From contig OZ024741.1 in the NCBI GenBank assembly GCA_964016885.1, forward strand, positions 299,212,001 through 299,276,000: a DNA stretch of 64,000 nucleotides. The letters run 5' to 3'. Position 1 is the first letter of the stretch, and each line of letters opens with the position of its first letter. Below the pieces are notes generated by a model. It saw nothing but the letters and a program-made list of their open reading frames with translations, had not been told where the DNA came from and made no database searches. This DNA is from Eledone cirrhosa (taxonomy: Eukaryota). The position numbers and the translations under genes were made by a program. Shown one piece after another: positions 9,123 to 43,228 of this stretch.

Positions 9123-12100
9123 ACGATCGAATGGATGAAAATGAAAGAAGCTGACATGGGGCAACGAGACACCTTCCCTAAGATCCAGAACTCCAAACAG
9201 AACCAAAAGATAATACACAAGACTAACATGATTCTCAAAAACATTATCATCACAAACAAACTAAACATTACTGATTTAAATCATCTCTATTATGCATCGG
9301 CTAAAGTCACCACTCACTTATGTGGAGTGAAGATGAAAAAACAAAGGAATTCCCACAAGAAATCTACTTGGCAAGAGAACATCAATCGCCAAATAAACCT
9401 TCTCCGATCTGACATAGAAATTTTAACAAACTATAAAGTAGGTGAACATGTTAAACAAACTAAACTTAGAAAATTGAGAAGAAAGTATAGTATAAAATCA
9501 ACAAGTGACATAGACATGCTGATAGAAATAATCAAGCAAAAAGTGTCGGCCAAAGCTGCTCGTATAAGGCGCTTTGAAAAACGATCTAGATTCTATAAGG
9601 ACAATAATATGTTCAAAAACAACCAAAGAAACTTCTACAGAAAAATTGGTAAGTCAACAATAACTGCTAAATCAATACCACCCAAGGAGGAAGTGCAAGA
9701 ATTCTCGGAAAAGATCTGGGGCGAAGAAAAAGTTCATAACATACATGCCCCATGGATAGACAGACAAAGGAAAGATACAGCTCACCTTGAAGAACAAATA
9801 TGGGAAAATATAACAGTTGAACAGTTGCGCTTGGCTCTAAGAAAAACCAGCAAATGGAAATCCCCAGGAAAAGACAAAATACAAAATTTTTGGATAAATG
9901 CCTTCACAGAGTCTCACGAGCTGTTGGCCCAACTTTACAATGAAATAGTTAAGGAGCCAGAAAAGATACCATCATGGCTAGTTAACGGCATTACATTCCT
10001 GCTTCCGAAGAATGATGAGACAAACAATCCCAAAAAATTACAGACCGATATGCTTGACCACAATGTATAAAATGTTAATATCAATCCTAACTGAATACAT
10101 ATATGACCACCTGATAACAAATGACCTATTTCCCATTGAGCAGAAAGGGTGTTAACGAGGCTCATAAGGCTGTAAGGATCAGCTTCTGGTTAACAAAATG
10201 ATACTGGAAGATTGTCATAATAGACACAAAAATCTATCAATTGCTTGGATAGATTATAAAAAAGCATTCGATAGTTTGCCACACAGTTGGATTGAAAAAT
10301 GTTTAGAGATTTTCAAAATATCCCCCGTTGTCAGGAGGTTTTTGTCATTCAGTATGAAGACATGGAAAACGACACTCCTTTTGAATAGTGAAACAAAATC
10401 ACTGGAAGCTGGAGAAGTTAATATTAATTGTGGAATTTTTCAGGGTGACTCTTTATCACCGCTTTTATTCTGCATCGCACTTATACCATTAAGTAAAATG
10501 CTCAATGAAACAAAACATGGATATAAAGTCTATGACAAAACCATTAATCACTTGTTCTACATGGATGACCTGAAACTATTTGCAAGAAATGAGGAACAAT
10601 TGCAAGGGCTATTATCCACTGTGGAGCAGTTCAGTGATGACATTAAAATGGAGTTTGGACTAGATAAATGCGCCAAAGCAATGTTCACCAGAGGAAAGCT
10701 GCTGAAGCGTTCAGACATTAATCTTGATCAGGGGAATGTGATAAGAGAACTTGATCAAGAAAAAACTTACAAATATCTAGGTGTTTGTGAAGGAGACGGA
10801 ATCAAGCACTCGACAATTAGGGAAAGGATAAGGAAGGAATGTTACCGCAGAGTAAGAGCAATCTTAAGAACGGAATTGAATGCAAGGAATAGGATCGATG
10901 CCATAAACACGCTTGCCATACCAGTAGTAACCTACAGTTACAATGTCATCAACTGGTCAAGCACAGAGATCCGTAGGCTCGATACAAAAATTCGAAAATT
11001 CTTAACCATGCACAGAATGCATCACCCTAAGGCAGATACAGATATAATATATCTCCCTAGGAAAGAAGGAGGACCTGGGTTAATCCAGTTAGACATTGCG
11101 TTGAAAACTGCAACAATTGGATTATCTACATATCTAAGGGAATCACATGATTGGATGATCAAACTCGTTTTGAAACACGAAAACATCAAAAGATCATACT
11201 CCATTACAAAAGATGCACAAAGATACAGTAATGGGCTACACATTCCAGAAGTCCCATTTACTGCTGAAATGGAAAACACAGAAAAAGCAAAGCAGCTAAA
11301 ATTAACTGCAGAGAAAGAACTGCTACAGAAACTGGCTAAGAAATGGCAAGAAAAGCCTCTGTATGGAAAATACCCAGAACGAGCTAACAATCCTGATGTT
11401 GACAAAACATTAACCCATCAGTGGTTGGCATCCTCTGGACTGAAATCGGAGACTGAAGGACTGATTATATCAGCACAAGATCAGTGTCTGGTAACAAAAA
11501 ATTACCAAGCCAACATAATAAAAAATGGATGCAGCCCATTATGCCGTGTATGCAAAAAACAACCAGAGACCATTGACCATATAATTTCAATGTGCAGTCC
11601 TATAGCTCCAACCGAATACCTAAACAGGCATGACAGAGCTGCACAATACATACATTCGATAATGTGTAAGCATTTTGACCTGCCCCATCAAAAGAATTGG
11701 TGGGAGCATCAACCACCTCCCATACATGAAAAAGATCACATCTCAATCTTGTGCAACTTTAGCATCCAAACAGACCGAAAAATAGATGCAAATAGACCTG
11801 ATATAATATTGAAGGACTTTAAAAAGAGGGTATGCCTTCTAATTGATATGTCCGTTCCAATAGACAAGAATGTATCTATAAAAATATTTGAAAAATTGAG
11901 CATGTATAAGGACCTGGAGATAGAAATTGGAAAAATGTGGAAATTGAGAACTAAAACAATACCAGTGGTTGTAGGTGCTCTGGGAATGATACCTAAGGGG
12001 TCTAATGATTACTTATCGCAAATCCCAGGAAACCCGCGTATAGGAGAAATACAAAAGATACTGCCCATATACTAAGGAAGATTCTGTCAATATAAGTACA

Positions 12101-12245
12101 TCACAAGTCTAAACATTAAAGATGCATGTGTGAGTATGTATGTTCTTTCTTGAACATGGCGGACCTTGTTCTCTCTTGAGGTCACTGGTTGTGACTTGGG
12201 GATAACTCGTATGAACATAAAGCAAGATAAATGCATCTGAAATAA
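9123..12245 (+). mobile_element. R4/Dong-type LINE, family B, about 3.1 kb
   Basis: ORFs 9135-10070 and 10198-12075: [63 protein letters not shown]; (TAA)n tail. Confidence 0.95.
9135..12095 (+). pseudogene. RT plus CCHC plus restriction-like endonuclease ORF, disrupted
   Basis: Frameshifts near 10030-10165; near 12060 the segment gtactaatgggaa present in sister copies (19951, 55130) is missing. Confidence 0.85.
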
Positions 12246-12261
12246 TAATAATAATAATAAT

Positions 12262-13082: not shown

Positions 13083-13128
<46 letters not shown>

Positions 13129-13401
13129 TTTCATTTATTAGCCACAAGGGCCGACATGTAGGGGACAATACAAAGACAGGGACAGTGCGGGTTTACAATA
13201 AGGTCGAGAAAAGTGCACAATGGCAAGACTAATTTAACAATGAAAATATAAAATATAAAATAAACTATGCAAAATATAACAAAATAAATTCCCCGATAGG
13301 GGGTGGACGACCCTGGGGTGATTCGGGTACCCCACCAATCGTGAACCATCCTGCGCTTCTAGGGCACCCAGGAGAGCACCCCTCTCCTCAAGTTAGCCAG
13401 T

Positions 13402-16400
13402 CTATAGGCGCATGGTCAGAGTAGGCCCATTCACACGAGCCATTCTCGCCACATTCACCCACCTTTTAGCAAATGTACTGGGGGGCAGCACTTCTCTCTC
13501 CACCCTCACCCTCCTTTCCAGGTGAAACTTGAAGAAGTTGATGAGGGATTGGCCGAAGAGAAAAGTGTCTGTCTTTAGTCCTTTCAACCTGGTCCACCAT
13601 ATAATCTCTTTCGCAACTGCCACCAGACAGAGGAAAATGTCCTGCTCTTCCTGACCTAAGGAAGGTGGCGGCTCGATCTTCACTATGGACTCGGCCGATA
13701 ACTGGATTCGTTCCACACGCGACAGTAGCTGTTCGACATAACTCCACAAGTCAGTAATGCACGGACATAGGACAAGTGCGTGCAGAACGGTTTCGTCGTT
13801 CTGTGCGCATCTTGGGCAGGTCCGTCTGACAGCACTTCCGTGCCTGTAGAGTTTATCCCGAACCGGCAGTGCCCCCCGGTAGCACTGCCAAGCGTGGGAT
13901 TTCTGGAAATTGTCCATCGTCCCCGGCTCAAAAGTCCTCCAGTACAGACTGGTCAGTTCGACTTCGTCGAGGCCCAAAGCTTCTCCGAGTGCGTCATCGC
14001 ACTTGCCCACCACTAATCCTCTATAAAACTCGAGAGTGGAAGTTCCACTGATCGCATTGCCCGCTTGGTAGAGGGCAGTGAGTGCCTGGCAACATTCCAG
14101 GTGCCAGTCACCCAGTGTCGGTCTCTTCTTGACCCAGGACTGCAGCTCAGTCAAAGAAATGAGCTGCGGAAAGGCCCGTCTGATAAACGGCGACCACACC
14201 TGTTCACCATTGAGGCAGAATATCTGGAGATGTCGCAGCCTCAACGCATGTCTGCGCATCATTAGCCACGGCATGCCCAGCCCTCCGCGTAGAGGGTGCT
14301 GGCAGCAGATGGACCGCCTCACCAACGGAACTTGTCCCCTCCACAAGAATTTGAAGAGGAGCCGTTCCAACTTGACGAGGCGCGGACGGGGGCAAGGCAT
14401 GACGGTTAGGCGGTAATAGATGACGGACGCGATGTACGGATTCGCCACCTCCGCGCGACCTTTCAGTGATAGCTTCCTCCCAGCCCATTTTTGGGTTAGA
14501 CTGGCTACTCTGCTCGTTACCTCGTCTCAATTCTTTTCCACCTGGAGGTCTGGTCCGAACCAAACCCCGAGCAACTTTACTGGTCCGTCGCTGTTGGACG
14601 GCATGGGCCTGCCTCTCCAGGTTCCGAGCTGCAAGCCCACCGACTTTTCCGGGTTAAGTTTGGCTCCTGTCAACCTTTCATATTCTTTCAATAAGGTGCC
14701 GACCACCTCGATTTCTGAGGTGTTCGACACCATCACGGTGATGTCGTCCGCATAAGCTGACACCGCCTTTCCACGTCCCGGTTCGAGCGGGATGCCCTGC
14801 AACAGCTCCAGCTTCCGCAGGAAAGGCTCGAGAGTCAATACCTACAGAAGGGAAGAGAGAGGGCACCCTTGACGGACCGATCGGGAGAGCCGAAATGGTT
14901 CCGAGAGGTGGCCATTAACTTTGACCACCGAGCGTGTGCCGCTGTGCATCGCAACGATCCAGCTTCTAAAGACAGGGCCGAAGCCAGCTGCTTTGAGGAC
15001 AAACTCCAGATACCGATGGTCGACCCTATCGAATGCTTTCGATTGATCTAAATTGATCAGTGCCCCACCGAAGCCAGGTTTACACCCTACCCTCTCTATG
15101 ATGTATCGCATGAGGTGGAGATTGTCGTGTATGGACCTGGCTGGGATTGCGCAAGTTTGCGCCTCCCCAACCAAATCCTCGACGACAAGCGCCAATCTCT
15201 TTGCTAACACCTTGGCCAAAATCTTAAACTCTGTGTTGAGCAGAGTTATGGGCCTGAAGTTGTCTAATGTATCCCTCTTGTTCTCGTCTTTCCTTATCAG
15301 CGTCACCACTCCCCTGCTCACAGAACTGGGAATACTCCCATTCTGCTGCCAGTTACAGTAGAGTGCTTCGAGGAGTTCGGAGAACAAGTCTGGCATATTT
15401 ACGTAAAGCTCGTAGGGCAGGGCATCCAAACCGGGTGACTTGCACCTCATGCAGCCGACAAGGGCGTCCTGAATTTCGGCTGAAGTAATCGGCCTTTCGC
15501 AGCGCTCAGCGTCGACCGTCGAGATGCGCGGCAAGCCGTCAAGGTAGGGACTGAAATCCGCTACTCTCTCTGACCCGCCACTCTCCCCGAACAACCGAGC
15601 AAAGTGCTGGCGAAAGGCCTCACACATCCGCTTGGAATCGCTTATCTCGTGTCCGTCTCGGTCCGCCAAAGACCGAATTGTGGTTTTATTACCACGCTGC
15701 GCCTCCGCCACGCGGGCCCATCGAACAGCTTTAGTTCCCTCGTTTCTCAGCGCACGCGCCTTAGCTCTGACAATGCAACTTTCGTGTTTGGCATTGAAGA
15801 AATGGTCTAATGCCATTCTCGCCGCTAGCACGTCAGTTGCGATGCCACTACAAATAGCCTCGTCTAACTTATCTACCAGCTCCCCCTCCTTTCTATTTTT
15901 CTCTAACGCTAGTTCTTTTCTGAACTCTATCGAAGTTACTCTAATCTCTCTTTTGAGAGCCCCCCACCATCTGTTGTTGATGATCCCCCCTGTCAACTTT
16001 TGCTTAACTAACTTATTGACTCGGTCCCTGTAAGCCTTACGTGCCGGAAATGACATGTTCAGCTTCCAGTAACCCGGTCCTAACCTACGCGTTTTATTTA
16101 GGTCGACCGTACAGATCACAAATTTGTGATCTGAATAGGCGACCGTTTTAAAAAGTCGACAGCCCACACTATTTCTATCTATTTTCCTAATGAAGATTCT
16201 GTCTATATACGATCTAGATGACCCCATTCGGTTGGTCCATGTCCATACTGGCACATTGGGGAAATCTAGTCGATACCTGTCAGACAGTTGGAACTGGCTG
16301 AGTAGGTGCTTGAGGCTTTTGCACCCCCCGCTCCTATCGGCTACTCCCACACAATCCCAGCGTGCGTCTAAGATGCCATTCCAGTCCCCCGCTAACAGTA

Positions 16401-16806
16401 AAGGGCGAGACGTACCCAGAAAGGTCTCCAGGCGCCTAAAGAAGTCAGGTCGTCCGGCCCCTGTAGGGGCGTAGGCGGCCAGCAGTCTAAAGGCACCACC
16501 TTCGCTACTGCTCACATCCAAGACCACCAACTTACCGTCCGGGTCCCGGAAGATCGACCTTACCTCGAGATCCAGTCCTTTCCTAAACAGCACTGCCACC
16601 CCACCCCCCATTCCCGGCCTGCTAACAGATGCGAAGATCTGATAGTCGTCGAAAATGGGGGCTAGTGCACGCGTGTCGGAAATTCTGGTCTCGCTTACGG
16701 CAATCACATCCATTTCCAGCGACCGGAGGTCGTTGAGCAGGCGACCCTGCTTCCAGGGTGACCCCAGGCCGCGAACATTTAAACTTCCTACTCTTAATAT
16801 GGCCAT
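13402..16806 (-). pseudogene. Tx1 ORF2 (APE endonuclease, RT, C-terminal zinc motif) with a nonsense codon and a frameshift
   Basis: SLNVRGL, SETR, AGDWN, SYIDRIF, YSDH, GYWKLN, KSPGLDAL, DQSKAFDRVDH, VRQGCPLS, AYADDI, CPRC..ETVLHALVLC; TAG at 14842-14844; frameshift near 14530. Confidence 0.92.
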
Positions 16807-18798
16807 ATTGGTAAGCTAAGAGAGAGAGAGAGGGAAGGTTTACTTACCTCCCGGGTCTTGTGAAGGTCGGGTGGTTCGAGCTTCATGGTTGGTGGGGTTT
16901 CTTTTGGGAACCCCTTTAAAAGTCTTGATGTGGGTTTCACATTCGGGTTTCCCACGTCTTGAGGTAAGCTCTCTCGAATTTCTTTGAAAGAATTGAGTGA
17001 CATTCGGACCAGAAGCAAATCTTCTGGCACGCAAAATGTGCTCATTTCAAAAATCTCCCCCTCTGTTTGAATGTCCTCGCTTCGCGCTAAGAGGGCCATC
17101 AGTTCATCGTTGGCCCTTCTGAAAAGCACGAAGTTTTTAAAATTTTGTTGGTGTGGTTTTATTTGTTTTCGTTTTGGTGAAGGTGGTGGCGATGGTTTTG
17201 GTGGTGTTGTTTCGGGTATGTCTATGTTTGTTGTAGGTGTGGTGTCTGCAATTTCAGGTATTTGTGTGTTTATTTGTACTTGTGTTTGTTTAGGTTGTTT
17301 GCGTTTCGGGGATTGTGGAGGTGGTGTCGATGTTGCTGATGGTACTGATGTTATTGGGGAAGTGTCTGCGTTAGTGGTGTCTGTATTATTTGTTGTGTCT
17401 GTTTTTGTGTTTTGTAGGGGCTTTTTTTTGTGTGAGTTTTCTGTTTTTTTGCACTTTTGGGTTTTCCTTCATCTACGCTGCTGGAAGACAAAGGGTCTGT
17501 GTCTGTGAGTGACTCTGTGTCTGTGTGTGCGTTTATTTTTTTTTGTCTATGTATATAGTTGGGGGGGGGGTAGGGGGAGTGGGAGAGCTTTCCTCGTTTT
17601 CTCCTTGGATTGGTTTTGGTGTTGGTGGTGATCCGGCTGCTTTTGATGTTGGTGTCCGTGTTTTTGTTGATGTTGTTTTTGGTGGTGGTGGTGGTGCAGC
17701 TTTCCGTGCTGACACTGGCGTTGGCAACAAAGGAGGTTTGCGACCCCCTGCATGTTTGCGCTGAGGGCAGAAGGCTTGAAGATGCGTGGCTTCTCCGCAA
17801 ACGAAGCAGCGTGGCCTTCTTCCGTCAATCATTAGTTGGATTGTTGTCCCGTCCTGCAGGCGGGCAAAATCTGGGATGTTATTTATATCCTCCGGTTTCA
17901 TTTGGAGAAGAATCTCCAAATCCATTCCGGACCAGTCTTCTCTCTCTGTCCTTTTGATGTCCAGGAGGGTGGTGTCTGTCCCCTCCTCGATTACGCATCC
18001 CAGCAGCCACCATATGTTCATTCCTGGTGGGATGCTGGGAATGCGTACCTTCACTGTCCTTTTACCCATATAGGACGGATGCATGATAATGCGTTCCGTT
18101 CTGCAGGGGATCACCGAGTGCTTAATAGCGAGGGCCTCGGATTTGAACAGTACCGAGGTGGTACCGAACTGTTTGCCTCTTTCTTTGTACTCTATGCTAC
18201 TTCCGATGTACTCCAACGCAGCCTCTATCTCTGCTTGGCTCGCAAGTTCCACTTTTCGTGTCTGCACCGAAATACATCGAAAGAGCACCGTCCTCCTTTG
18301 CATGGCCGCTATTGCCTCGTCCGGGATGGTCAGGTTTGCCCAGGACTTCTCCTGTTTAATTAGCCTCCACGCTTTGGCTAACTGTTCGTCTTTATCGCTA
18401 ATATCAATATCGATATTCAATAAGCGCTTTGTTTTTGCTGCTGCTGCTGCAGCAAATGTGGTGTTTCTGATGCTCTTATTGTTGTTGTTGTCATTCTTGC
18501 TGTTGCCACCGCCATCCTTGTTTACATTGAAGCTGTCGGTGTTTTTGTCGTTATTGCTCTGAGTTGTTGTTGTTATGGTGGTGGTGGTGGTGGTGGCGGT
18601 GGTGGTGATGTCGTTTTCAGATGATACTGCTGCTATGCCAGAAGATTGTGATGGTAGCTTTTTAGTTTTGCCTCCACATTCAGTAGAGTGGATGACAGGC
18701 ATGACTGTAGCCGTCGTAGTCGTGGTGAAATCTGCAGTGGCTGCCTTTAAACTTTTGACCTGAACGTTGTTTACCGTTTCAAGGTCGAAAATTTCCAT
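16794..18798 (-). pseudogene. Tx1 ORF1 (gag-like, CCHC knuckle), frameshifted in its low-complexity C-terminus
   Basis: ORF 17533-18798 contains CFVCGEATHLQAFC; the frame appears to continue in ORFs 17351-17800 and 16794-17129. Confidence 0.8.
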
Positions 18799-19010
18799 AA
18801 TTTTCTTTTGGTGAGGAAGTGATTTTTTTCGAAGATTTTAAAAATAAATCTGAATATTGAGAGGTATCCCTCTCTTTAAATCAAGATGTGTACCTTAAGT
18901 TTCGTTAATGACAAGAAAATACAAAAAAAAGACACTTTAAAACAGCTTAAAGCTACGAACCGTTTCCCCCGCAGACTTGTCTGTCTTCACACATAATAAT
19001 AATAATAATA

Positions 19011-19190
19011 ATTGTTTCTACTTTAGGCACAAGGCCAGCAATTACCCAGTGCATTACTGGTACTTTATTTTATCGACCCCGTAAGGATGAAAGGCAAAGT
19101 CAACCTCGGCGGGATTTGAACTCAGATTGTAAAGGGACGTAACTATGCTGGAAAGCATGGCGTCCGACCCTCTACCGATACTGCCAATCC
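19011..19190 (-). mobile_element. tRNA-derived SINE
   Basis: A-box TGGCAGTATCGG, B-box GAGTTCAAATCC, 3' end CTTGTGCCTAAAGTAGAAACA(ATT)n. Confidence 0.9.
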
Positions 19191-19205
19191 ATAATAATAA
19201 TAATA

Positions 19206-19700
19206 GAAGTGGTATGAGCATAAGCCAGAGTCGGTGATTGAAAACGATCAGGTGAAGGTGCTGTGGGATTTTAGGATACAGACGGACAAGAAACTGGTAC
19301 ACAATAGGCCTGACCTGGTGGTTTTTGACAAGGAAAAAAGATCGTGCCTGATTGTAGATGTAGCCTGCCCATTTGACACGACAGTGCAAGAAAAGGAGAG
19401 GGAGAAAATTAACCGATACCAGGACTTAAAGTGGGAGTTAAAAAGGATTTGGAACTGCCATGAAATTAAGGTCGTCCCGATTGTCATAAGCGCACTAGGT
19501 ACTATCTCAAAGAGTTTCCAAGGATGGTTAAAGAATTAGTCCAGCCCCGCTTTTTGGAACACTTCAAAAGGCATGTTTGCTGGGAATAGAAAGAACCCTC
19601 CGGTACGTCCTGAATGTCTGAGGCTGCAGGTAGTGGCTTGATATTCATTTCAATAAACTTTCCAGTTAACTAACATCAATGACTGAAACTCAAAGAACAA
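19206..19700 (+). mobile_element. R4/Dong-type LINE, family D, 3' fragment
   Basis: VLWDFRIQTD, HNRPDLVV, RYQDLKWEL, PIVISALG; matches 55862-56350. Confidence 0.9.
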
Positions 19701-19732
19701 TACTACTACTACTACTACTACTAATAATAATA

Positions 19733-19917
19733 ATTGTTTCTACTTTAGGCACAAGGCCAGCAATTAACCAGTGCATTACTGGTACTTTATTTTATCGACC
19801 CCGTAAGGATGAAAGGCAAAGTCAACCTCAGCGGGATTTGAACTCAGATTGTAAAGGGACGTAACTATGCTGGAAAGCATGGCGTCCGACCCTCTACCGA
19901 TACTGCCAATCCACCGC
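19733..19917 (-). mobile_element. tRNA-derived SINE
   Basis: Near-identical to 19011-19190. Confidence 0.9.
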
Positions 19918-19925
19918 ATAATAAT

Positions 19926-20140
19926 GAAGAAATACACAATTACAAAAGATAGTACTAATGGGAACTGCCCAGTTACTAAGGAACATTCTGTCAATATAAG
20001 TACATCACACGTCTAAACACTTAAAGATACTTGTGTGTGTATGTGTGTTATTTTTTTAACATGGCGGACCTTGTTGTCTCTTGAGGTCACTGGTTGTGAC
20101 TTGGTGATAACTCGTATGAACATAAAGCAAGATAAATGAA
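19926..20140 (+). mobile_element. Dong family B 3' end
   Basis: Matches 12045-12235. Confidence 0.85.
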
Positions 20141-20154
20141 AAAGTAACAATAAA

Positions 20155-20660
20155 AATAGGATCATTCATTGGGAATTTAGCGTAAAAAGTACGATCCTCA
20201 AAAGGCAGGTAAATGCTATGAACAGAAACCAGATTCATTGTGGAGAATGATTGAGTCAAAATCCTGTGGGATTTCATGCACCGGTGTAATCATCAAGTAG
20301 AATATAGAAAACCACGTATAAACAATTACTGACACTGAATGGAGCCCACTCTTCAGACAACAGGTTTAATGGTATAGAGATACAGGAAAAGGAAAGATAC
20401 GAAAAACTAGCTCTGTAAATATGACACCTATAGTGGATGATGAAAGTAGAAGTGAATCTGGTTGTAAGTGCACTTGGCACAGTCAGTCAACAAATAGAAA
20501 ACTAAATAAGAAGAGCATGTGTTATCATTGGGGTGAATCATCTGCAGAACTGCTTGAATACTCAGAACAATGCTTGAATATTGAAGGTGTCATCTCAGTT
20601 CTCAGGTTGTGATTAGCTGACATCTGTATTCCATCACCAGTGTTATTGAGACAACACAAT
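20155..20660 (+). mobile_element. Degenerate R4/Dong-type 3' fragment (family E)
   Basis: gtggagaatgattgagtcaaaatcctgtgggatttc (VEND.VKILWDF) and gtaagtgcacttggcaca (VSALGT); (TAA)n tail. Confidence 0.7.
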
Positions 20661-20681
20661 AATAATAATAATAATAATAAT

Positions 20682-20870
20682 AATTGTTTCTACTTTAGGC
20701 ACAAGGCCAGCAATTCACCAGTGCATTACTGGTACTTTATTTTATCGACCCCGTAAGGATGAAAGGCAAAGTCAACCTCAGCGGGATTTGAACTCAGATC
20801 GTAAAGGGACGTAACTATGCTGGAAAGCATGGCGTCCGACTCTCTACCGATACAGCCAATTCACCGCCCT
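20682..20870 (-). mobile_element. tRNA-derived SINE
   Basis: Near-identical to 19733-19917. Confidence 0.9.
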
Positions 20871-20885: not shown

Positions 20886-21034
20886 GTTTTCTTTATTAAC
20901 CACAAGGGTTTACACAAAGTGAGACATTAAGGACAGTACAAATATAGGACGGTACAAATGGGCATGTCTGCGTGTAAAAAAAACAAAAACAGATGTAACA
21001 AAAAAGAACAATGAAAAATTCCCCAATAGGGGGG
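20886..21034 (-). mobile_element. Tx1 3' UTR fragment between (AAT)n tracts
   Basis: ctttattaaccacaaggg and aaattccccaatagggggg match 13131-13150 and 13286-13303. Confidence 0.75.
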
Positions 21035-22520: not shown

Positions 22521-23334
22521 TTCCCATATATATATATATTCACTGGTATATATATATATATAGTTAGAGAAGCAAAAAATTGCTTATTGTGATCCAGTTC
22601 TTGGTTAAGAAAGCCAGTTTCATGGATGGTTTCAACGTACGGTTAGGGGTAACTCCACAAGTTTGTAAGAATTCCGTTCAATCTTGGAGTATAAAGTATA
22701 ACAGAGAAAACACATGTAAGCATTAAGAGAAGGATTTTATGCAGGTATTTACGACCGTTTCATTGGTAAGTGCAACCTTATATTGCTATACTGCAAATAG
22801 CAGCCACTCAATTATAATTGTTGTTCACAGTCCAAATTTCCAAAATAGTAAGTTACTCTTGAAATAATTCTTAATATATAGAAAAAAACATTTATTTGGA
22901 ATTGTATTTACTAGTATAGAGAGAGAGGAATCAGAAGGTGAGGGGACAAACGGAATAGGAGAGAGAGGAAGGGGGAAGAGGTAGGAAGTAGAGTGACAAC
23001 TGAGATGGAGGGAGGGGTGGAGGTGGAAGGATTCCTTGGTCAGTTTTGATAGCAGACTTCATGAAGTGGAATGTAGTGAGTTAAAGAGAATTAAATTGAT
23101 CATAGTGGGAGGGATGGATAGAGAGGGAGAGAGAGAGGGGGGAGATATAAAGAGATAAATGTATATATATATTGTTATACTTTGGGAGGGTCATGTTGCC
23201 AATAAGAAACACATGCACCAGCTGCTTTCACTTCAATTTATTATATATTTATAAATTTATAAATTTACAAATTTACAAACTTATAAATTTCTGGTTGGTT
23301 GGTTGGTTCCACAACCAGATAGTTGTTTATATAT

Positions 23335-23379
23335 AGTCATAGTCCTTTCGTCACACACTCTGTGACCTCTTCAGTGACT
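23335..23379 (-). ncRNA. Minimal type I hammerhead (family A)
   Basis: Reverse complement of 25402-25446. Confidence 0.8.
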
Positions 23380-25401
23380 GGGGATTCCTTTCTTTGTTTC
23401 TGTGCCTTTCCTTTCTTCTATCCAACGCCATTTTGTTTCTGTGTGTGTGTTGTGTGCTCAGTTTGCGCATGCACCACATCCGGGTGTCTGTGTGTGTTTG
23501 TGTTCATTTATCTATTTGTTTATTTATTTATTTATTGTTGGTTGGTTGTTTGTTCTATGTGTGTGTGTGTTTTCATTTTGTCCTGTGTGTGTTTTCATTT
23601 TGTCCTTAATTGTAAGTTGTGATGTTGCTGTTCCACTCATATTTTCTATTAAATTTTAATTTTGGTTTTAATTCTTTTATGCTTACTGCCTCTGTAATTT
23701 GCCTAAACATTGCGTCTTTTCTGTGTGTGGATTCTATTTTTATTTCTATGTTCTCTAATCTATCCCTGTGTTCTATCTTAGCATGTTGGTAGAGCACAGA
23801 TGATTCTTTATTATCTTGGAGGTCTCGCCAGTGTTCATTTATTCGTTCCCCTATACTACGAGCTGTGTCACCTATGTACACTATATTTTTGTTTCTACAT
23901 TGTCCTTCAGTACATCTTATGCTATACACTACATTTCTAGTTTTACAGTTAATATGGGGGCTTATTTTACAGGATATACATTTCTTATCTATACATGAGG
24001 GTCTTTGGAACGGGTATGTCTTGCTAATAAGTGTTTTTACGGAGGTACCTGGTCTTTCTACTATTTTAATATTGAGATTATGTTTATTTAGGGCCCTTCT
24101 AAATTTGTAGGCTAGTTCGCCTCTAGGCGTTGTATTGATGAACATTACACTCTGGTATTTATTGCTATCATACCATGAGTATTCTATTGGCCTTGTTCCT
24201 AGTTCTTTCTATTCTATTCCAAAATTTGCTCCTATACAAGGGGCAGGTCCCATTTATGTCATTATTTACCATTTTTTCCCATTTGGTTCTGGCTCCTTTA
24301 TACACTCTGATTCTATCTCTCTGATTGTAGCCAGAGAACTGCATACGGTGGATGAAGTGTTGTATGTGTCTCTCTAGTTCTTCGGGGTTGCACATGCGGG
24401 ACACATTTCTCATCACCCGTACCAAATCCGCAATCAGTATGTTGATTTTGGTATGGTCCGAAATGGCCGAGTTTCGGTGGATCAGATGTTTGGAAGTCAT
24501 GGGTTTGGCATAATGGGAATGGAGGATTTGTTTTTGGTTGTTAATGGTATCTAACCAGAGCTCTGTGTCTAGTACAGGTAATCGATGGTTGGGGTGTCTA
24601 CTTGGGTAGTCTATAGTAACTCTAATGCTCTGGTGGATGGAGTTTGCTATTTGCTGGATGCTTTCCATTGTGTTTTTCTCTAGTTCCTGACTGTTCTTTA
24701 GTGGGGGTGTCTTAACTACCATATTAACTACCATATTAACTGTAAAACTAGAAATGTAGTGTATAGCATAAGATGTACTGAAGGACAATGTAGAAACAAA
24801 AATATAGTGTACATAGGTGAGACAGCTCGTAGTATAGGGGAACGAATAAATGAACACTGGCGAGACCTCCAAGATAATAAAGAATCATCTGTGCTCTACC
24901 AACATGCTAAGATAGAACACAGGGGTAGATTAGAGAACATAGAAATAAAAATAGAATCCACACACAGAAAAGACGCAATGTTTAGGCAAATTACAGAGGC
25001 AGTAAGCTTAAAAGAATTAAAACCAAAATTAAATAGAAAATATGAGTGGAACAGCAACATCACAACTTACAATTAAGGACAAAATGAAAACACACACAGG
25101 ACAAAATGAAAACACACACAGGACAAAATGAAAACACACACACACATAGAACAAACAACTTACAATTAAGGACAAAATGAAAATACACACAGGACAAAAT
25201 GAAAACACACACACACACATAGAACAAACAACCAACCAACAATAAATAAATAAATAAATAAACAAATAGATAAATGAACACAAACACACACAGGCACCCG
25301 GATGTGGCGCATGCGCAAACTGAGCACACAACACAGACACAGAAACAAAATGGCGTAGGATAGAAGAAAGGAAAGGCACAGAAACAAAGAAAGGAATCCC
25401 C

Positions 25402-25446
25402 AGTCACTGAAGAGGTCACAGAGTGTGTGACGAAAGGACTATGACT
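25402..25446 (+). ncRNA. Minimal type I hammerhead (family A)
   Basis: AGTCA-CTGAAGA-G-GTCACA(gagtg)TGTGAC-GAA-AG(ga)CT-A-TGACT. Confidence 0.8.
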
Positions 25447-25706
25447 ATATATAAACAACTATCTGGTTGTGGAACCAACCAACCAACCAGAAATTTATAA
25501 GTTTGTAAATTTGTAAATTTATAAATTTATAAATATATAATAAATTGAAGTGAAAGTTACTGGTGCGTGTGTTTCTTATTGGCAACATGACCCTCCCAAA
25601 GTATAACAATATCGGTTTCAACACACGATTTCAGATAAAGAATCTTGCTAAACAAATTCAGAAACGAAATATATATATATATATATAAAATAAAGATAAA
25701 GATAAT

Positions 25707-25896
25707 TGTTTCTACTTTTGGCACAAGGCCAGGCATCATTCCAGCGCATTACTGGTACTTTATTTTATCGACCCCGTAAGGATGAAAAGCCAAGTTAACC
25801 TCGGCGGGATTTGAACTCAAATCGTAAAGGCCCGTAACTCCATGCTGCAAACCATGGTGTCCGACCCTCTACCGATACTGCCAATCCACCGCAATT
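25707..25896 (-). mobile_element. tRNA-derived SINE with 18-bp target-site duplication
   Basis: AATAAAGATAAAGATAAT at 25689-25706 and 25897-25914; empty site in the opposite arm at about 26717-26740. Confidence 0.92.
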
Positions 25897-27214
25897 AATA
25901 AAGATAAAGATAATAATGACAAAAATAAAGGCAAAGAAGAAGGTGAGAAAGAAGAAAAGAAAAGATAGCCAAGCAGGGGAGGGAAGGAAGGAAGAAAACG
26001 AAGAAATAGAAGAGGAATGAGGGAGAAGAGGGGTATATATGTATTGGTTTTAAGGGTAATTAAAAGGGTTTAGATATAACAAAAGGGTATAAAGTCTAAG
26101 TATATGTAGTTTGTCAGTTGGTAGTAAGAGGTTAAGGGTTCGATTTGTAGTGCGAAAACTTCTCTTTGAGTCTATGGTTACAATAAATAGATCTTTCGAT
26201 TTTATTGTTGAGTAACTTATTCTTCGAACTTAAGATGTGGAACAGCTCAAGGTCGCATAATCGACAGCTTCTCATACCACTCGGATATGGGGGCGCGTTC
26301 GATAATTTGTTCCACTTCAGGCTGTATTGATGGTTACTTTCCCTCAGTTGCCAGGTCTTGTTCGCAAGGGTAGTTACATAACGGTGCTGGGAATGTTTCT
26401 TGCGTAACGGTGTGTATACCAACGGGCTTTAAATGTATTCCCAGTCGCTCCGATGTAACCATAGACTCAAAGAGAAGTTTTCGCACTACAAATCGAACCC
26501 TTAACCTCTTACTACCAACTGACAAACTGCATATACTTAGACTTTATACCCTCTTGTTGTTCCTAAACCCTTTTAATTACCCACAAAACCAATACATATA
26601 TCCATCCCTTCTCCCTCATTCCTCTTCTATTTCTTCGTTTTCTTCCTTCCTTCCCTCCCCTTCTTGGCTATCTTTTCTTTTCTTCTTCTCTCCCCTTCTT
26701 TGCTTTTATTTTTGTCATTATTATCTTTATCTTTATTTTTTATATATATTTATATTTATCTCTTTATATCTCCGCCCTATCTCTCTCCCTCTCTATCCCC
26801 CACCCCCGACTATGATCAATTTAATTCTCTTTAACTCACTACACTCCACGACATGAAGTCTGCTATCAAAACTGACCAAGGAATCCTTCCACCCCTACCC
26901 CTTCCGCCATCTCAGTTTGTCACTCTACTTCCTACCTCCTCCACATTCCTCTCTCTCTATACTATTCCGTTTGTCCCCTCACCTTCTGATTCCTCTCTCT
27001 CTATACTAGTAAATACAATTCCAAATAAATGTTTTTCTCTATATATTAAGAATTATTTCAAGAGTAACTTACTATTTTGAAAATTTGGACTGTGAACAAC
27101 AATTATAATTGAGTGGCTGCTATTTGCAGTATAGCAATATAAGGTTGCACTTACTAATGAAACGGTCGTAAATACCTGGATAAAATTCTTCTCTTAATGC
27201 TTACCTGTGTTTTC

Positions 27215-27253
<39 letters not shown>

Positions 27254-30296: not shown

Positions 30297-30503
30297 GATT
30301 TCTATTATAAGCACAAGGCCACGAATTTGGGGAAAGTCAATTAAATCAATCCCATTATGTGAATGTTGCTATATTTATGGATTACCAAAGGTTGAAAAGG
30401 AAATTTGACCTCGGTGGGATGTAAACTCAGAATTTAAAGAGCAAGAACAAAGGCCACAATGCATGTTATGTAACGCTCTAACGATTCTGCTAAACCACCA
30501 CCG
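30297..30503 (-). mobile_element. Older subfamily of the tRNA-derived SINE
   Basis: gatttctattataagcacaaggcc 3' end; acctcggtgggatgtaaactcaga B-box region; ctgctaaaccaccaccg head. Confidence 0.7.
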
Positions 30504-30519: not shown

Positions 30520-32300
30520 ATTACTATATTCTCCACAAGGGCTGAAACATGAACGATAATACAAAAATAGGAACAGTGTGATATTTCAAACATCGAGTAA
30601 CTAACGATAACATACATCAATAAACAATACGATTATAACAATAAAGATTACCAAGCTGGGGTGACAAAGGAAGCATACTAATCCTAAACCAACCTAATCT
30701 GCAAGAGTGCCAAAGGAGGACACCCCTCTCCTCTCCTAATTATCCATTCTACAGGAGCAGGGTTAGAGTAGGCCCATTCCCTAGGGCCATCCTCACAACC
30801 CACCTTTTAACACATGTACAGGGAGGCATTACTTCCCACTCCACACTCATGTTCCGTTTCAAATGTAACTTGAAAATGTTCATGAGGGCTTGGCAGAAGG
30901 GAAATTGTTGTCGTCATACCTCCCCCCCCACACACACAGCCTCTTTCACTACAGCCACCAGACAGAGGAACAATGCCTGCCTTGCCAGACAAAAAGAAGG
31001 CGGCGGACCGATCTTCCTGATGGACTCAGTCAATAGCAGGATCCATCCTACACGATGTAGTAGCTTTTCAACAAATGTTCACATACCCTATATAAGTGCC
31101 TGCAGAAAGGTGTCGTTGCTTTGCGCGTATCTCGGACAGGTCTATCAGGCAGCACTTAGAACCTGTAGAGTTTGTCTCGAACCGACAATGTCTCCGGCTA
31201 GCACTGCCAAGTGAGGGACTTCTGCAACTTGTCCGTAAATCCCGGCTCTAAATTTGTCCGGAACAGACTGATCAGTTCTTTTTCGTCAACGCCCAGAGCC
31301 TCTCCGAGAACGTTGTCTCAATGCATACCACTAACCTTCTATATAACTCAATAGTGGAATTTCCACTCATCGCATTGCCCGAATGGTAGAGTGTTGTGAG
31401 TGCTTAACATCTCTCCTTATACCAGAAACCGAGTCTCAGTCTTTTCTTGACCAACGACTCCAGCTCAGTCAAAGTGACGAGCTGTAGAAAGACATGTTTG
31501 ACGAATGGCGACCACAAATGTTCACCATTTGGAAATATCTGGATATGGCGTAGAAGTGACGCATATTTGCGCATCATCAACTACGGCATGTCCAGTCCAT
31601 ACAGGCTGCTATCAGCAGAGAGAATACCTCACCACAGAAATTGTTATATTCACCTCCATACAAACTTTCAGGATTAGCTTCCGCTCGGCTTATTTCTAGG
31701 TGAGTGGCCAGCCTAATTGGAGGTCTGACCCAAACCAGAGCCTGAGCAACTTCAACAATCCATCTGTACAGCGTCCGACGACGCTGTTGCACGGCATTAA
31801 TTTGCTTTTCCAGGTGCTAGGTTGCAAAACCACCGATGTTTTCGGGTTGATTTTTTGCTCTGCCTTCTATCTAGATCCCTTTCTACGCTTTCTATCTATA
31901 TGCATCAGGCACACCAGGAATTTGTGGTCTGAATAAGTGACTGTTTGGAATTGTGGACTATCTCTTCTATCCATATCTACTAACTTAATGGAAGGTCTAT
32001 ATATATACGATCTAGATGACCCTATGTGTTTGGTTCAGGTTCACACTGGTGTATTTGGGAAATCTAGTGGGTACCTGTCAGCCACGTCTAGCCTTCTAAC
32101 TAACTCATTCTCTAGTCTAATTCTCTCTATAACTCCTCATTTACTAAACCCATATTCTACAATTATCACCCTTTTCAGTCAAACAACCATTTGTTGTCGA
32201 CGATTGCCCCTGTCAACGCCCGCATAACTGTTTTCGTAATCCAGTGTATGTAGGCTTTGCGCGTCAGAAAGGACGCGTTTAGATTCCAGTATAGAGATCC
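30520..32300 (-). mobile_element. Degenerate, internally deleted Tx1 LINE
   Basis: Colinear with 13135-14660 (gccaccagacagaggaa, gagtaggcccattc, tggaggtctgacc) and with 16030-16290 (tacgatctagatgaccc, gggaaatctagt). Confidence 0.85.
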
Positions 32301-38826: not shown

Positions 38827-38925
<99 letters not shown>

Positions 38926-39034
38926 GTAATAATAATAAAATTGAAGACTAAAATCCAAAGAGGGCTTGATAAGGAAAATATATATCAAATATATAAGAAC
39001 CGTAGAGCAAATATTTATTCAAATAACAGATTAA

Positions 39035-39085
39035 AGTTTAAGCAAAGAATCGCTGCTTTCACCCTTAACGGGATCTTCTGAAACT
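39035..39085 (-). ncRNA. Hammerhead-like motif with CAGA core variant
   Basis: Reverse complement of 43057-43107. Confidence 0.65.
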
Positions 39086-40006
39086 AACAAAGTCAATCTG
39101 TAAACGCAGAACTGGATATTTCAAAAAACGTTGCAACCGGAGGAAGACAGGAAGACGATACTTTGGTTCGTGGTAACGTTCGCTGGCAAAGAACGGGAAA
39201 AAACGAATAATACGTCATTAATAGGAGCGGTGAAAAACAATTACGCGCAAAGACAAAACCACGTTTATGGTATAAAAGAGGTCGTAGACTAATGTTCTCT
39301 TAGGTGGTGCATAGAGACGTTCTCTGGCAATGAACGAAAAAAACGAAGATAATAAGTCATATGTGGAGCGTGGAGAACAATAGCACGCAAAGACAAAACC
39401 ACGTAAATGGTATAGCAGAAATCGTAGACTAAAATTCTAACTAGGAGACCAAATGAATCTCCGCTACAGAGTTAAGAACAAAGTAAATAAATACAATACA
39501 GAAGTAATAGGAACAAATAAATACATACACGCAAACAGATACGTACATACACAAGCATACGCAAAACCTTACCATGGGTATACAAAACCATGCACATATA
39601 AATATGTGTGTGTGTGTATGCTTGTGTACAAATAAATAAATAATTATATAAAAGTAAATAAATACGTATATAACAAGCGCACACGCATACCTACATATAA
39701 ATACACGAATGTTCGGAGACGTAAGTCAACTAAAACAAGAAGTACACATATACACACACCCACCATACGTACGAAGCTGCACACTCACGCGGACGCAAAA
39801 CTCCCGTATACACATAGCCAAACCCTAAATACCAGAATATGTAAAAATTATACGCTATAACAGTCAAATATACGTACGAGAAGGTATACATACCTTCACA
39901 AAACATACGGGTAATATATACTTACCTATGCAAATACGTAAAGGAATAAACAGAACATATACTTAGCTCCCACATCAAGACGTAAAATATCCACGTATAG
40001 ATCGTG

Positions 40007-42095
40007 CTATCCGTTAAGGTATAACGTGGGGCTGTAATACAGGAAAGTTTTGTGCAATTTATGTTTACAAGCCGAAATTGCCTCAGATTTTTTGTTTAAG
40101 ATGTGGTCTGTAGCGTAGAGTATTTCCAGGGCCTCAGCGGTGCGGAGGTCACATGGTTTTTTATTTCCGTTATACGATCTAGACCTAGCTAGGATCTCCT
40201 AGTGTAACTTATATTGGGTGTGGTTGTCTTTTGGACTCCAGATATAAGCTGAAAGTGACGTCATATTCCTTCTTAGAGGGTAACGAAAAGAATGGGTATG
40301 CATGTAAAGACGCTGCTTGAAACTATTGGCGGTTAACCCTATGTAGGCCCTACGGGACGTGGGTGTTACAACCTTACATTTGTAGACAATGTTACTAGAG
40401 AGGCATTTCCCGGATAGGGGGCAATCAGCCCGATTCCTACAATTACAGTTAGTACTACCTACAGGGTTACACGTGTTCCTACGGCTAGGTAGTTTAGCTA
40501 AATTTGAAGCTGTGATGTTATGTGCAAGGTTAGGAGTCGTAGAGTAAGAAATTTTAATAGTATTTCTATTAAAAATTTTACTATATTTATGTGTAGGGGG
40601 AAAATGCTTCGTAATAAGGGAAAGAAAGATCTTAGCTAATGGTGTGGCCACCTCCATATTATATGGTGGGTTAAACCATCAAATGCGACGGGATTTATAT
40701 CTTGTAGGTCTATTTTCGTACACTGTATATGCTACCTTATCGACAAATCCACTTCGAGCAAGAGCTTCATTGTAATAAGTGGAATGGTCGTTGAAAATGC
40801 GCTCGTTGGTGGAAAGACGGAAAAGCCTCAACGAAACGTTTCTTACCAGGTTCTTGGTTATGCTCGCAGGATGGTTGGAATGCTTACTTATGTAATTAAG
40901 CGTATCATTCGGCTTTCTATACGAGTAATACAACCCATTCAATAAATTGAGGGTAACGTCGAGGTAATTAACGACCGACAGATTGGCCTCAACCTGTATA
41001 GAGAGGTTGAAGCCTTTATAGAAGGCTGTGAGTTCTTTTCTGAACCTGTCGCAAGCACGAGGTCCGCACTTAGTCATGGTCAAAAGACGATCGTCACGGT
41101 ACAAACCACCGCCCGCGTTGGGGAATTCGTCCTTGATAGAGAAAAGAAGGAAAAGGCCAATAAGATCAGTAACCTCCGCAGAGTCACAGGCGCCCATACT
41201 CACGTCGAATGGGGTACTATTGGATTTTTTAATCCAAATAGAGTCGTCGAAATTAATCACCGACTTTCGGGCATTAAGGATGACATCAACTTCAAAATCC
41301 TTAACCCCTGTGAGTGTTTTAGCGAAATTGATAGCTCTAAGGAGAAGTGGTAAAGTGATGGAGGAGTAGTAATTGTTGATGTCGAATTGGATAAAACGGC
41401 AATGTTCCTTGTTACATATGCCGTTGAACCAATCAATCACCGCGAAAGAATTGTTCCACAGTGCGAGAGGGGCCAAACTTCTAATTTCAGGTATAATTCG
41501 TAGGGTTAATAAGCCGAATAGAGGGGTTGTTCGGAAAATTGGATTTGTGATCCTTCAGGGTAAAGTGGGGAGAGATAGGGTCCAGAGGTTCGGTCCGGTC
41601 CAGGATGTTGAGATCAGATGTGATTTTAAACCCAGCATCGTTGATTTCATTGATGACGCACCGATTAGTTTTACGGTAATCCTTAGTTACAGCATTATGT
41701 AGTAGTTGATGGTAAGTACTGCGCTCCACTTGATATAGGTTGCCAGTTTTGTCGGAATGGACGTGCACGGCGTTAGAATCCTTAATAGAACGAATTCTAT
41801 TCTTCAGGTCTTGCTGGAACGAATTGCTCCTATGCCGAAATTTGATATTCCGAATGAGTTCCAAGACATCATTTTCGAAGGGTAGCAATGCTGGGTTCCA
41901 CGGAGGGTTATTATACGTTTTAAATCCAAATTTATCCTGTTTGTTGTCTCCTTTTCGCGGATTATCGAAATAAAAGGCACGCCAACGCAACCTTTTAATG
42001 AACGCGTCTGTTTTCTGTATCAGGAGTTTTAGGTATGTTTTCCTGCTTGGTACGGGTATGTTCTTTGTAGAAATATTCAGATGTTGTTTCTGCAT
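40007..42095 (-). pseudogene. PLE RT plus GIY-YIG ORF, disrupted
   Basis: STKNIPVPS, SDKTGNLY, FDINNYYSSI, FDVSMG, LYRDD, NYLDVTLNL, WFNPPY, CNCRNRADCPLSGKC, NIVY..YIGLT..FKQR, LNKKSE..CKH; frameshift near 41480; stops at 40679 and 40199. Confidence 0.9.
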
Positions 42096-43056
42096 GATTA
42101 CAGCCCCACGTTATACCTTAACGGATAGCACGATCTATACGTGGATATTTTACGTCTTGATGTGGGAGCTAAGTATATGTTTTGTTTATTCCTTTACGTA
42201 TTTGCATAGGGAAGTATATATTACCCGTATGTTTTGTGAAGGTATGTATACCTTCTCGTACGTATATTTGACTGTTATAGCGTATAATTTTTACATATTC
42301 TGGTATTTAGGGTTTGGCTATGTGTATACGGGAGTTTTGCGTCCGCGTGAGTGTGCAGCTTCGTACGTATGGTGGGTGTGTGTATATGTGTACTTCTTGT
42401 TTTAGTTGACTTACGTCTCCGAACATTCGTGTATTTATATGTAGGTATGCGTGTGCGCTTGTTATATACGTATTTATTTACTTATATACGTTTATATAAT
42501 TATTTATTTATTTGTACACAAGCATACACACACACACATATTTATATGTGCGTGGTTTTGTATACCCATTGTAAGGTTTTGCGTATGCTTGTGTATGTAC
42601 GTAACTGTTTGCGTGTATGTATTTATTTGTTCCTATTACTTCTGTATTGTATTTATTTACTTTGTTCTTAACTCTGTAGCGGAGATTCATTTGGTCTCCT
42701 AGTTAGAATTTTAGTCTACGATTTCTGCTATACCATTTACGTGGTTTTGTCTTTGCGTGCTATTGTTCTCCACGCTCCACATATGACTTATTATCATCGT
42801 TTTTTCGTTCATTGCCAGAGAACGTCTCTATGCACCACCTAAGAGAACATTAATCTACGACCTCTTTTATACCATAAACGTGGTTTTGTCTTTGCGCGTA
42901 ATTGTTTTTCACCGCTCCTATTAATGACGTATTATTCGTTTTTTCCCGTTCTTTGCCAGCGAACGTTACCACGAACCAAAGTATCGTCTTCCTGTCTTCC
43001 TCTGGTTGCAACGTTTTTTGAAATATCCAGTTCTGCGTTTACAGATTGACTTTGTT

Positions 43057-43107
43057 AGTTTCAGAAGATCCCGTTAAGGGTGAAAGCAGCGATTCTTTGC
43101 TTAAACT
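43057..43107 (+). ncRNA. Hammerhead-like motif with CAGA core variant
   Basis: AGTTT-CAGAAGA-tCCC(gttaa)GGGt-GAA-AGCAG(cgattct)TTGCT-T-AAACT. Confidence 0.65.
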
Positions 43108-43127
43108 TTAATCTGTTATTTTAATGA

Positions 43128-43228
<101 letters not shown>

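What the first reader, a model, noticed from the sequence alone, without database searches (positions are those of the whole stretch)
19011..20870. tRNA-SINE probably mobilised by the Tx1 LINE
Seen: SINE 3' end CCTTGTGCCTAAAGTAGAAACA(ATT)n and older copy CCTTGTGCTTATAATAGAAATC(ATT) compared with Tx1 3' ends CCTTGTGGCTAATAAATGAAATC(ATT)n and CCTTGTGGTTAATAAAGAAAAC(ATT)n. The SINE has the same polarity as Tx1 and opposite to Dong, and one copy has an 18-bp TSD. Established: stringent SINEs share 3' ends with partner LINEs, mostly L2, CR1 or RTE; L1-clade partners usually rely on poly(A). Inference: a sequence-matched Tx1/SINE pair sharing a microsatellite target. The shared stretch is short (about 22 nt). 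The central CTTTCATCCTT.CGGGGTCGATAAAAT..GTACCAG resembles the MetaSINE domain from memory.
Basis: partly seen in the sequence, partly recalled or inferred. Interest (0 to 1): 0.75.

Follow-up and report, generated by a model that had tools for sequence, protein, structure and literature searches.

The report
SINE mimics Tx1-type LINE tail hairpin
A very abundant short jumping element in this octopus-like genome ends in the same ~25-base signal (a predicted small RNA hairpin) as a group of L1/Tx1-type retrotransposons and likely borrows their copying enzyme, but unlike them it lands at almost any ATTAT site rather than in long ATT repeats.

Summary
Three copies of a ~185-bp SINE with Pol III-type boxes (about 400,000 copies genome-wide) lie beside L1/Tx1-type LINEs. 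The shared end is more than a loose match. Twelve LINE 3' ends keep stem-[CTTGT]-stem, AATAAA, GAAA. The SINE keeps loop, spacing and GAAA, swaps one stem pair (C-G to G-C) and loses AATAAA. In 990 kb of unselected DNA, 103 of 104 motif hits were SINE or LINE ends (shuffles 0.2). Dong-like and RTE-like ends do not match. SINE target duplications are 10-20 bp and start at ATTAT (40 of 58 copies). It also peaked earlier than the adjacent LINE family, and MetaSINE membership is not shown. Best reading (0.72): an ATT-group L1/Tx1 LINE mobilises it by recognising the hairpin; no assay was possible. The 'Tx1' subgroup name is inferred, not tested by phylogeny. The scan found this pair before in three other windows of this genome. 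New variant of a known kind.

The parts
19013..19191 (-). SINE copy 1, young subfamily, first few bases missing; (ATT)n run 18996-19012 joins it to the LINE 5' end
19735..19917 (-). SINE copy 2, young subfamily
20685..20869 (-). SINE copy 3, full length, with A-box-like and B-box motifs and no internal T4 run
19013..19037 (-). SINE 3' signal: TGGC[CTTGT]GCCT predicted hairpin, 6-nt spacer, GAAA, CA
13127..18995 (-). Near full-length L1/Tx1-type LINE, family A1: ORF1 within 17533-18837; ORF2 broken into 14842-16815 (APE + RT start) and 13402-14526 (zf-RVT)
13127..13152 (-). LINE A1 3' signal: GGCC[CTTGT]GGCT predicted hairpin, AATAAA, GAAA, then (ATT)n
20886..21034 (-). 5'-truncated LINE of family A2 (3' UTR only), hairpin AACC[CTTGT]GGTT; its (ATT)n run leads into SINE copy 3
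19205..19700 (+). 3' fragment of an R4/Dong-like LINE (name inferred), opposite polarity
   Evidence: (about 90% to 55823-56348)
19938..20158 (+). 3' fragment of a second Dong-like family
   Evidence: (89-90% to 12060-12253 and 54938-55158)
30297..30503 (-). Older-subfamily SINE copy, directly downstream of an old L1/Tx1-type copy
30521..32084 (-). Old, decayed L1/Tx1-type fragment (72% to A1) with the same terminal loop
50442..50661 (+). SINE copy with the 18-bp target-site duplication (50442-50459 and 50644-50661)

Best explanation
This is a ~185-bp SINE whose last ~25 bases match the conserved end of this genome's (ATT)n-tailed L1/Tx1-type LINEs, and it is likely copied by their ORF2 protein, which would recognise a predicted small CUUGU-loop hairpin in the SINE RNA. 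Shown: the shared end, its restriction to these two element types in the DNA sampled, the swapped stem pair, and 10-20-bp duplications that begin with ATTAT directly after the conserved end. Inferred, by analogy with stringent L2 elements and L1 target-primed reverse transcription: Pol III transcribes the SINE from its internal boxes; ORF2 binds hairpin plus GAAA; the APE domain nicks the strand opposite ATTAT; the freed end pairs with the first AUU units of the RNA and primes; a second nick 10-20 bp away makes the duplication. The SINE would have lost AATAAA because a Pol III RNA needs no polyadenylation signal. The broader SINE target would follow if a short AUU tail needs only about 5 bases of pairing while LINE RNAs with longer AUU tracts favour long arrays, or if older, less selective families of the same lineage did most of the copying; both are untested.
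For: (1) Twelve LINE ends from at least 8 families keep the terminal motif although their 3' UTRs no longer align to A1 past the ORF2 stop. (2) The SINE has the same loop and spacing to GAAA as A2, A3 and B1: 13-17 of 22 positions identical. (3) Stem pair 2 is C-G in 12 of 12 LINE ends and G-C in the SINE (62 of 74 young copies chosen by their central part only); A2 has A-U at pairs 3 and 4. Pair test on 14 distinct rows: covariation 0.343, reached by 2 of 500 shuffles, slid versions 0.058 or less. The hairpin is in the minimum-energy and centroid folds of two young SINE ends, A1 and A2. (4) Census in 990 kb of unselected tiles: 104 motif hits = 95 SINE, 8 LINE, 1 unrelated after checking by eye; shuffles 0.2. 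(5) Local alignment of the SINE end: four Dong-like ends and one RTE-like end are matched by 731-997 of 1000 shuffles, five L1/Tx1-type ends by 0-43 of 1000. (6) Duplications of 10 nt or more in 40 of 58 full-length copies against 40 of 600 mismatched pairs; 38 of 40 start at offset 0; first five bases A40 T40 T39 A38 T37. Three LINE copies with readable duplications (L047, L097, L260) show 11-18 nt from offset 0, starting ATTA. (7) ORF2 is L1-like: best solved relative human L1 ORF2, E 2.4e-52, against R2 at 1.4e-21. (8) Ages overlap: young SINE 2.8-10.7% from its majority sequence; A2 0-7%, A3 2-18%.
Against: (1) Target breadth differs sharply: 4 or more ATT units follow 25 of 29 A1 and 14 of 15 A2 copies but 4 of 58 SINE copies; 14 of 16 full-length A1 copies have 4 or more units on the 5' side against 5 of 58 SINEs. 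(2) The SINE peak (median 5.8%; older subfamily 12.6%) is older than A1 (0-7%, mostly under 4%, in sets partly selected for young copies). (3) The match is short, and the SINE-versus-LINE pair swap is one evolutionary event. The 3-4-bp hairpin folds no better than shuffles (z -0.55 to +1.37), and the window's older SINE copy does not form it. (4) No sampled LINE family carries the SINE's G-C stem: a genome-wide pattern joining the SINE stem to AATAAA gave 4 hits, all SINE variants. (5) The sample is about 1.2 Mb of 3.0 Gb, so a LINE family of under a few thousand copies could be missed. (6) LINE duplications are mostly unreadable inside (ATT)n, so that comparison rests on 3 copies.
Confidence: 0.72

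Rival explanations
1. The tail came from this LINE lineage, but the hairpin is a relic: ORF2 now needs only the terminal AUU repeat (relaxed recognition, like poly(A) for mammalian L1).
For: The hairpin is marginal; the spacer has drifted and AATAAA is gone; mammalian L1 is relaxed (PMC3472496, PMC4176376, passages).
Against: Stem and loop are kept in both SINE subfamilies and across divergent LINE families with pair-preserving changes. Among recurring sequences that end at ATTATT, SINE and LINE ends are the largest clusters and no other family with a tail of this kind appeared.
Confidence: 0.12
2. A rare or extinct LINE that was not sampled, with a SINE-type G-C stem and a loose ATTAT target, is the true partner; the sampled families are only cousins, or belong to another clade.
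For: The target and age mismatches. Older relatives of A1 (69-85% identical) often have only 2-3 ATT units after the end, although array decay could also explain that.
Against: No such end among 104 hits in random tiles and 32 in LINE-rich tiles, nor in the genome-wide pattern. If the partner is an older L1/Tx1-type family, this rival merges with the best explanation.
Confidence: 0.11
3. The Dong-like or RTE-like LINEs mobilise the SINE, and the likeness to the L1/Tx1 end is coincidence or convergence.
For: Dong-like copies are abundant and share the same AT-rich nests.
Against: Opposite repeat polarity for Dong-like ends, (GAT)n ends for RTE-like ones, no tail similarity; chance level about 1e-6 per window.
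Confidence: 0.05

Closest known systems
Stringent L1-clade pairs: maize LINE1-1_ZM with ZmSINE2/3, Chlamydomonas L1-1_CR with SINEX-3_CR (PMC3472496, part 1 of 3 read; PMC3747384, passages)
   Same: An L1-superfamily LINE and a SINE share a 3' end; the maize pair has a hairpin with compensatory changes; the paper found only 3 SINEs with L1 tails among 58 pairs.
   Different: Those are plant and algal, share about 50-80 nt, and the algal pair ends in poly(A). Here the host is an animal, the match is about 25 nt, the loop is CUUGU and the terminal repeat is (ATT)n.
Crocodilian SINEU with Tx1-Mar (PMC4494074, passages and section 16)
   Same: A SINE thought to be moved by Tx1-group LINEs.
   Different: SINEU has snRNA heads and poly(A) tails; the link rests on shared targets, ages and heads, and no LINE sharing the 3' end was found. 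Here the link is the tail, and the targets only partly agree.
Stringent L2 pairs (eel UnaL2, zebrafish ZfL2-1/2; PMC4176376, abstract and passages)
   Same: ORF2 binds a small 3' stem-loop, which is the mechanism proposed here.
   Different: L2 clade and experimentally shown; here L1 superfamily and only inferred.
Microsatellite-targeting Tx1 families Kibi (TC)n and Koshi (TTC)n (as described in PMC4494074, passages)
   Same: L1-superfamily LINEs that sit in microsatellites.
   Different: Targets here are (ATT)n and, for sister families, (TATC)n-like repeats; relationship not tested by tree.
Octopus OK, OR1, OR2 SINEs (Ohshima and Okada 1994; seen only as a citation) and mollusc MetaSINEs (PMC4824008, parts 1-3 of 6 and part of the supplement)
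   Same: tRNA-type SINEs of cephalopods and other molluscs; this family may already be one of the named octopus SINEs.
   Different: Could not compare with OK/OR sequences. Bivalve SINE partners reported so far are CR1, CR1-Zenon, L2 and Nimb (PMC11481361, passages; no Tx1 mention).

Membership tests
tRNA-derived SINE (SINE2) | Short, dispersed, non-coding repeat with target-site duplications | tested here: met
   107 subfamily copies (125 central-part hits) in 800 kb; duplications in 40 of 58
tRNA-derived SINE (SINE2) | [quoted passage not shown] | tested here: met
   By eye: TGGCAGTATCGG (10 of 12 to the recalled A-box consensus) and GTTCAAATC, about 57 nt apart; no internal T4 run
tRNA-derived SINE (SINE2) | Head alignable to a tRNA | tested here: inconclusive
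   ARAGORN found no tRNA in the window, Rfam none at E up to 5; no tRNA library was at hand
Stringent SINE/LINE pair | Shared 3' terminal sequence | tested here: met
   13-17 of 22 positions, same register; profile score reached by 3 of 2.39 M shuffled windows
Stringent SINE/LINE pair | Conserved stem-loop with compensatory changes | tested here: met
   (2 of 500 shuffles; related rows, so not a probability); folding energy itself not better than shuffles
Stringent SINE/LINE pair | Same insertion signature | tested here: inconclusive
   Same ATTAT start, polarity and length range, but a strong difference in array preference
Stringent SINE/LINE pair | Tail-dependent trans-mobilisation | not testable with these tools
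   Needs a cell assay
L1 superfamily LINE (partner) | ORF1 plus ORF2 with APE, RT and C-terminal zinc knuckle; RT closest to L1 | tested here: met
   Pfam Exo_endo_phos, RVT_1, zf-RVT; human L1 ORF2 best in PDB
Tx1 group (partner) | RT clusters with reference Tx1 elements | not testable with these tools
   No named Tx1 protein among 120 listed homologues; Atlas unavailable
Tx1 group (partner) | Target preference | tested here: met
   14 of 16 full-length A1 copies have 4 or more ATT units on the 5' side
MetaSINE | 66-bp Meta domain directly after the tRNA head, 61-86% to consensus | tested here: inconclusive
   By eye against bivalve Meta sequences in the supplement: 19 of 23 nt match one copy's domain start, but about 30 nt further from the head, and the rest of the domain has no counterpart. 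The consensus and the cuttlefish member are in a figure that is not held.
CORE-SINE / DeuSINE | CORE or Deu/Nin central domain | tested here: inconclusive
   By eye against the bivalve sequences only: at most a few shared bases with the CORE end, none with Deu; vertebrate and octopus references not held

The most novel reading that the evidence does not exclude
An animal L1/Tx1 lineage still uses stringent, hairpin-based RNA recognition, and has carried one of the largest SINE expansions of an octopod genome (about 400,000 copies). The same enzyme would send its own RNA to long microsatellites but the SINE RNA to almost any ATTAT, so that the length of the RNA's terminal repeat, and not the endonuclease alone, sets the apparent target specificity.
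Probability: 0.4. Interest if true: 0.72.

Novelty: new variant of a known kind. Interest (0 to 1): 0.52.

Why it matters
Whether L1-type elements were stringent in the ancestral state and later relaxed is an open question raised by PMC3472496, whose only L1-clade examples are from plants and algae. A tail-sharing animal pair with a minimal 25-base signal and natural compensatory variants would make this directly testable. It would also name the likely driver of a major SINE expansion in octopods; 893 of 900 recently active SINE families were unclassified in a 2026 Octopus vulgaris annotation (PMC13282606). The split between LINE and SINE targets offers a natural test of how far the RNA tail shapes target choice.

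Tried and rejected
DNA search of the genome with the whole SINE returned nothing because very common words are skipped, so counts came from patterns and sampled tiles. A recalled octopus SINE with a longer LINE-like tail prompted a pattern search: 1 hit, a nested copy, so no such subfamily was seen here. ARAGORN and Rfam gave no tRNA call. Protein Atlas could not read the query or a stored homologue. Sequencing runs: no RNA holder listed, which is no evidence on expression. The SINE divergences were inflated by truncated copies and were replaced. The 5'-flank counts (32 of 89) were not used, because many alignments break inside the element. Automatic class labels mislabelled 6 LINE ends as SINE; corrected. 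One artefact row (zero-length body) was dropped from the 59 rows, leaving 58. The 'TX1' hits in PMC4176376 are names of L2 protein mutants. SINEBase supplements and Albertin 2015 could not be read.

Full report
Setting. The window lies in a 3.0-Gb animal genome. The closest named relative of the LINE protein is from Argonauta (73%), and sampled tiles hold cadherin and C2H2 frames, so an octopod host is likely. This is inference; the record was not traced.

The locus. On the minus strand the order is: a 150-bp end of LINE family A2 (20886-21034), SINE 3, Dong-like fragments on the other strand, SINE 2, another Dong-like fragment, SINE 1, and a 5.87-kb LINE of family A1 (13127-18995). The pieces are joined by (ATT)n runs. 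A1 has an ORF1 and an ORF2 broken into two frames with APE, RT and zf-RVT domains. An open 1204-aa frame of family A2 (L120) has human L1 ORF2 as its best solved relative (E 2.4e-52; R2 1.4e-21). The partner is therefore L1 superfamily. 'Tx1' is inferred from its microsatellite preference and non-poly(A) end; no reference Tx1 protein was available. 'Dong' and 'RTE' are likewise names inferred from recalled domain motifs and terminal repeats.

The SINE. There were 125 central-part hits in 800 kb of unselected tiles: 76 young subfamily (about 187 bp), 31 older (about 216 bp, with an extra 30-nt block) and 18 with other or missing 3' parts. This gives roughly 400,000 copies. An exact 28-nt young tail occurs 132,470 times. 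LINE ends: 992 for the pattern,892 for the A2/A3 pattern. A- and B-box-like motifs are present, but no tRNA was called.

The shared end. Searching with the ORF2 C-terminus gave at least 8 related families, ending in (ATT)n (A group) or (TATC)n-like repeats (B group). Their 3' UTRs stop aligning to A1 at the ORF2 stop, yet all end in stem-[CTTGT]-stem, AATAAA, GAAA with small variations. Read without a gap, the SINE end is TGGC[CTTGT]GCC(T/A), six bases, GAAA, two bases, ATT: the register of A2, A3 and B1. The pair test gave 82% of cells paired and covariation 0.343 (2 of 500 shuffles; slid controls 0.058 or less). The rows are related and the SINE swap is a single event, so this is support, not proof. 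The hairpin appears in the predicted folds of 4 of 5 ends tested but is no more stable than shuffles.

Specificity. The exact motif occurred 83 times in 800 kb (77 SINE, 6 LINE, shuffles 0). A looser form occurred 104 times in 990 kb (95 SINE, 8 LINE, 1 unrelated; shuffles 0.2) and 32 times in 200 kb of LINE-rich tiles (9 SINE, 23 LINE). Four Dong-like ends and one RTE-like end scored at shuffle level; a second RTE-like family ends in (GAT)n and was compared by eye only. Families of under a few thousand copies could be absent from this sample.

Insertion signature. Of 58 full-length SINEs (35 from random tiles, 17 from loci picked by the young tail, 6 from the window), 40 have duplications of 10-20 nt, most 12-19. 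Mismatched pairs gave 40 of 600. In 38 of 40 the duplication begins right after the conserved end, nearly always with ATTAT, so the SINE adds almost no tail of its own. Three LINE copies with interrupted arrays show the same pattern.

What does not fit. The LINEs sit in long arrays: 25 of 29 A1 copies (picked by BLAST without the tail) and 14 of 15 A2 copies (picked by a pattern without the tail) are followed by 4 or more ATT units, and 14 of the 16 full-length A1 copies with a detected 5' end (of 20 fetched) have such a run on the 5' side. For the SINE the figure is 4 of 58, close to the 188 of 4021 expected for any ATTAT site; at 3 or more units it is 13 of 58 against 330 of 4021, a mild enrichment. 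Genome-wide, 10,413 SINE ends carry five ATT units under a looser anchor than the one giving 132,470, so at most about 8%. The window is a nest and misleads on this point. Ages: young SINE median 5.8% (n=70; 3 at 2% or less), older 12.6% (n=33). A1 lies at 0-7%, A2 at 0-7% and A3 at 2-18%, in small and partly biased sets. Older relatives of A1 often have only 2-3 ATT units, which may reflect looser targeting or decay.

Central domain. Against the bivalve sequences printed in the MetaSINE supplement, 19 of 23 bases match the start of one Meta domain, but the position and the remaining 40 bases do not. Membership is open. The main consensus figure and the SINEBase files could not be seen, and they bear on this point.

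Literature. Searches found no paper describing a tail-sharing SINE/Tx1 pair or this pair in cephalopods. Repbase, Dfam, SINEBase and subscription journals, including the 1994 octopus SINE paper, were not searchable. What I saw: PMC4824008 parts 1-3 of 6 plus supplement part 1 and passages; PMC4494074 passages and section 16; PMC3472496 part 1 of 3 and a supplement search (file 1 not searched); PMC13282606 parts 1-2 of 3; passages of PMC3747384, PMC8967140, PMC11481361, PMC4758252, PMC4176376, PMC5786205 and PMC3531059.

Earlier scan notes. A look-up by sequence showed nothing. A look-up by place, made after my analysis, showed three notes on other windows of this genome that reach the same pairing. 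They are not independent evidence. One says the SINE makes the same duplications at the same ATTAT sites, which I confirm; I add that array preference and peak age differ. One labels the SINE Deu/Nin-type, which I could not see against the bivalve Deu sequences.

Verdict. Real, and a good candidate for a stringent L1/Tx1-SINE partnership in an animal (0.72). New variant of a known kind; interest 0.52.

Noticed in passing
L085, L102, L110, L120:641-657, L126, L132, L137: Sister L1/Tx1-type families end in the same hairpin but are followed by (TATC)n-like repeats, so the terminal repeat changed while the recognition signal stayed.
   Followed up: partly
window 13284-13297 and 21021-21034, minus strand; many loci: A second short inverted repeat, CCCCTAT(C/T)GGGG, recurs in the otherwise unalignable 3' UTRs of nearly all these LINE families; the SINE lacks it.
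   Followed up: no
L065, L092, L115 (older) against window 19013-19191 (young): The young, more abundant SINE subfamily has lost a ~30-nt block with an inverted repeat and a C-run just upstream of the terminal hairpin.
   Followed up: partly
L077:7077, L093:557, L107:1051 and 3016, L112:4666: A related SINE-like family shares the central part but continues into a different 3' region, suggesting tail exchange.
   Followed up: no
L135:4267-7071, L125:4469-6535, L093, L107, L117, L078, L091: An abundant RTE-like LINE carries a PHD finger directly after the RT domain and ends in (GAT)n.
   Followed up: no
L033:864-1214: A tandem array of 45-bp units made from the SINE 5' end, a SINE-derived minisatellite.
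   Followed up: no
L065, L091, L101, L119, L184: SINE copies form head-to-tail chains in which a new copy re-uses the duplicated target of the previous one.
   Followed up: no
window 22697-27223 and 38834-43308: Large nested inverted repeats around Penelope-like frames (weak GIY-YIG hit at 23609-24208).
   Followed up: no
G000:C1 near 26.5-28 Mb, 37.1 Mb and 66.4 Mb: ATT-group LINE ends cluster in hot spots, some spaced about 6 kb apart like head-to-tail stacks.
   Followed up: partly
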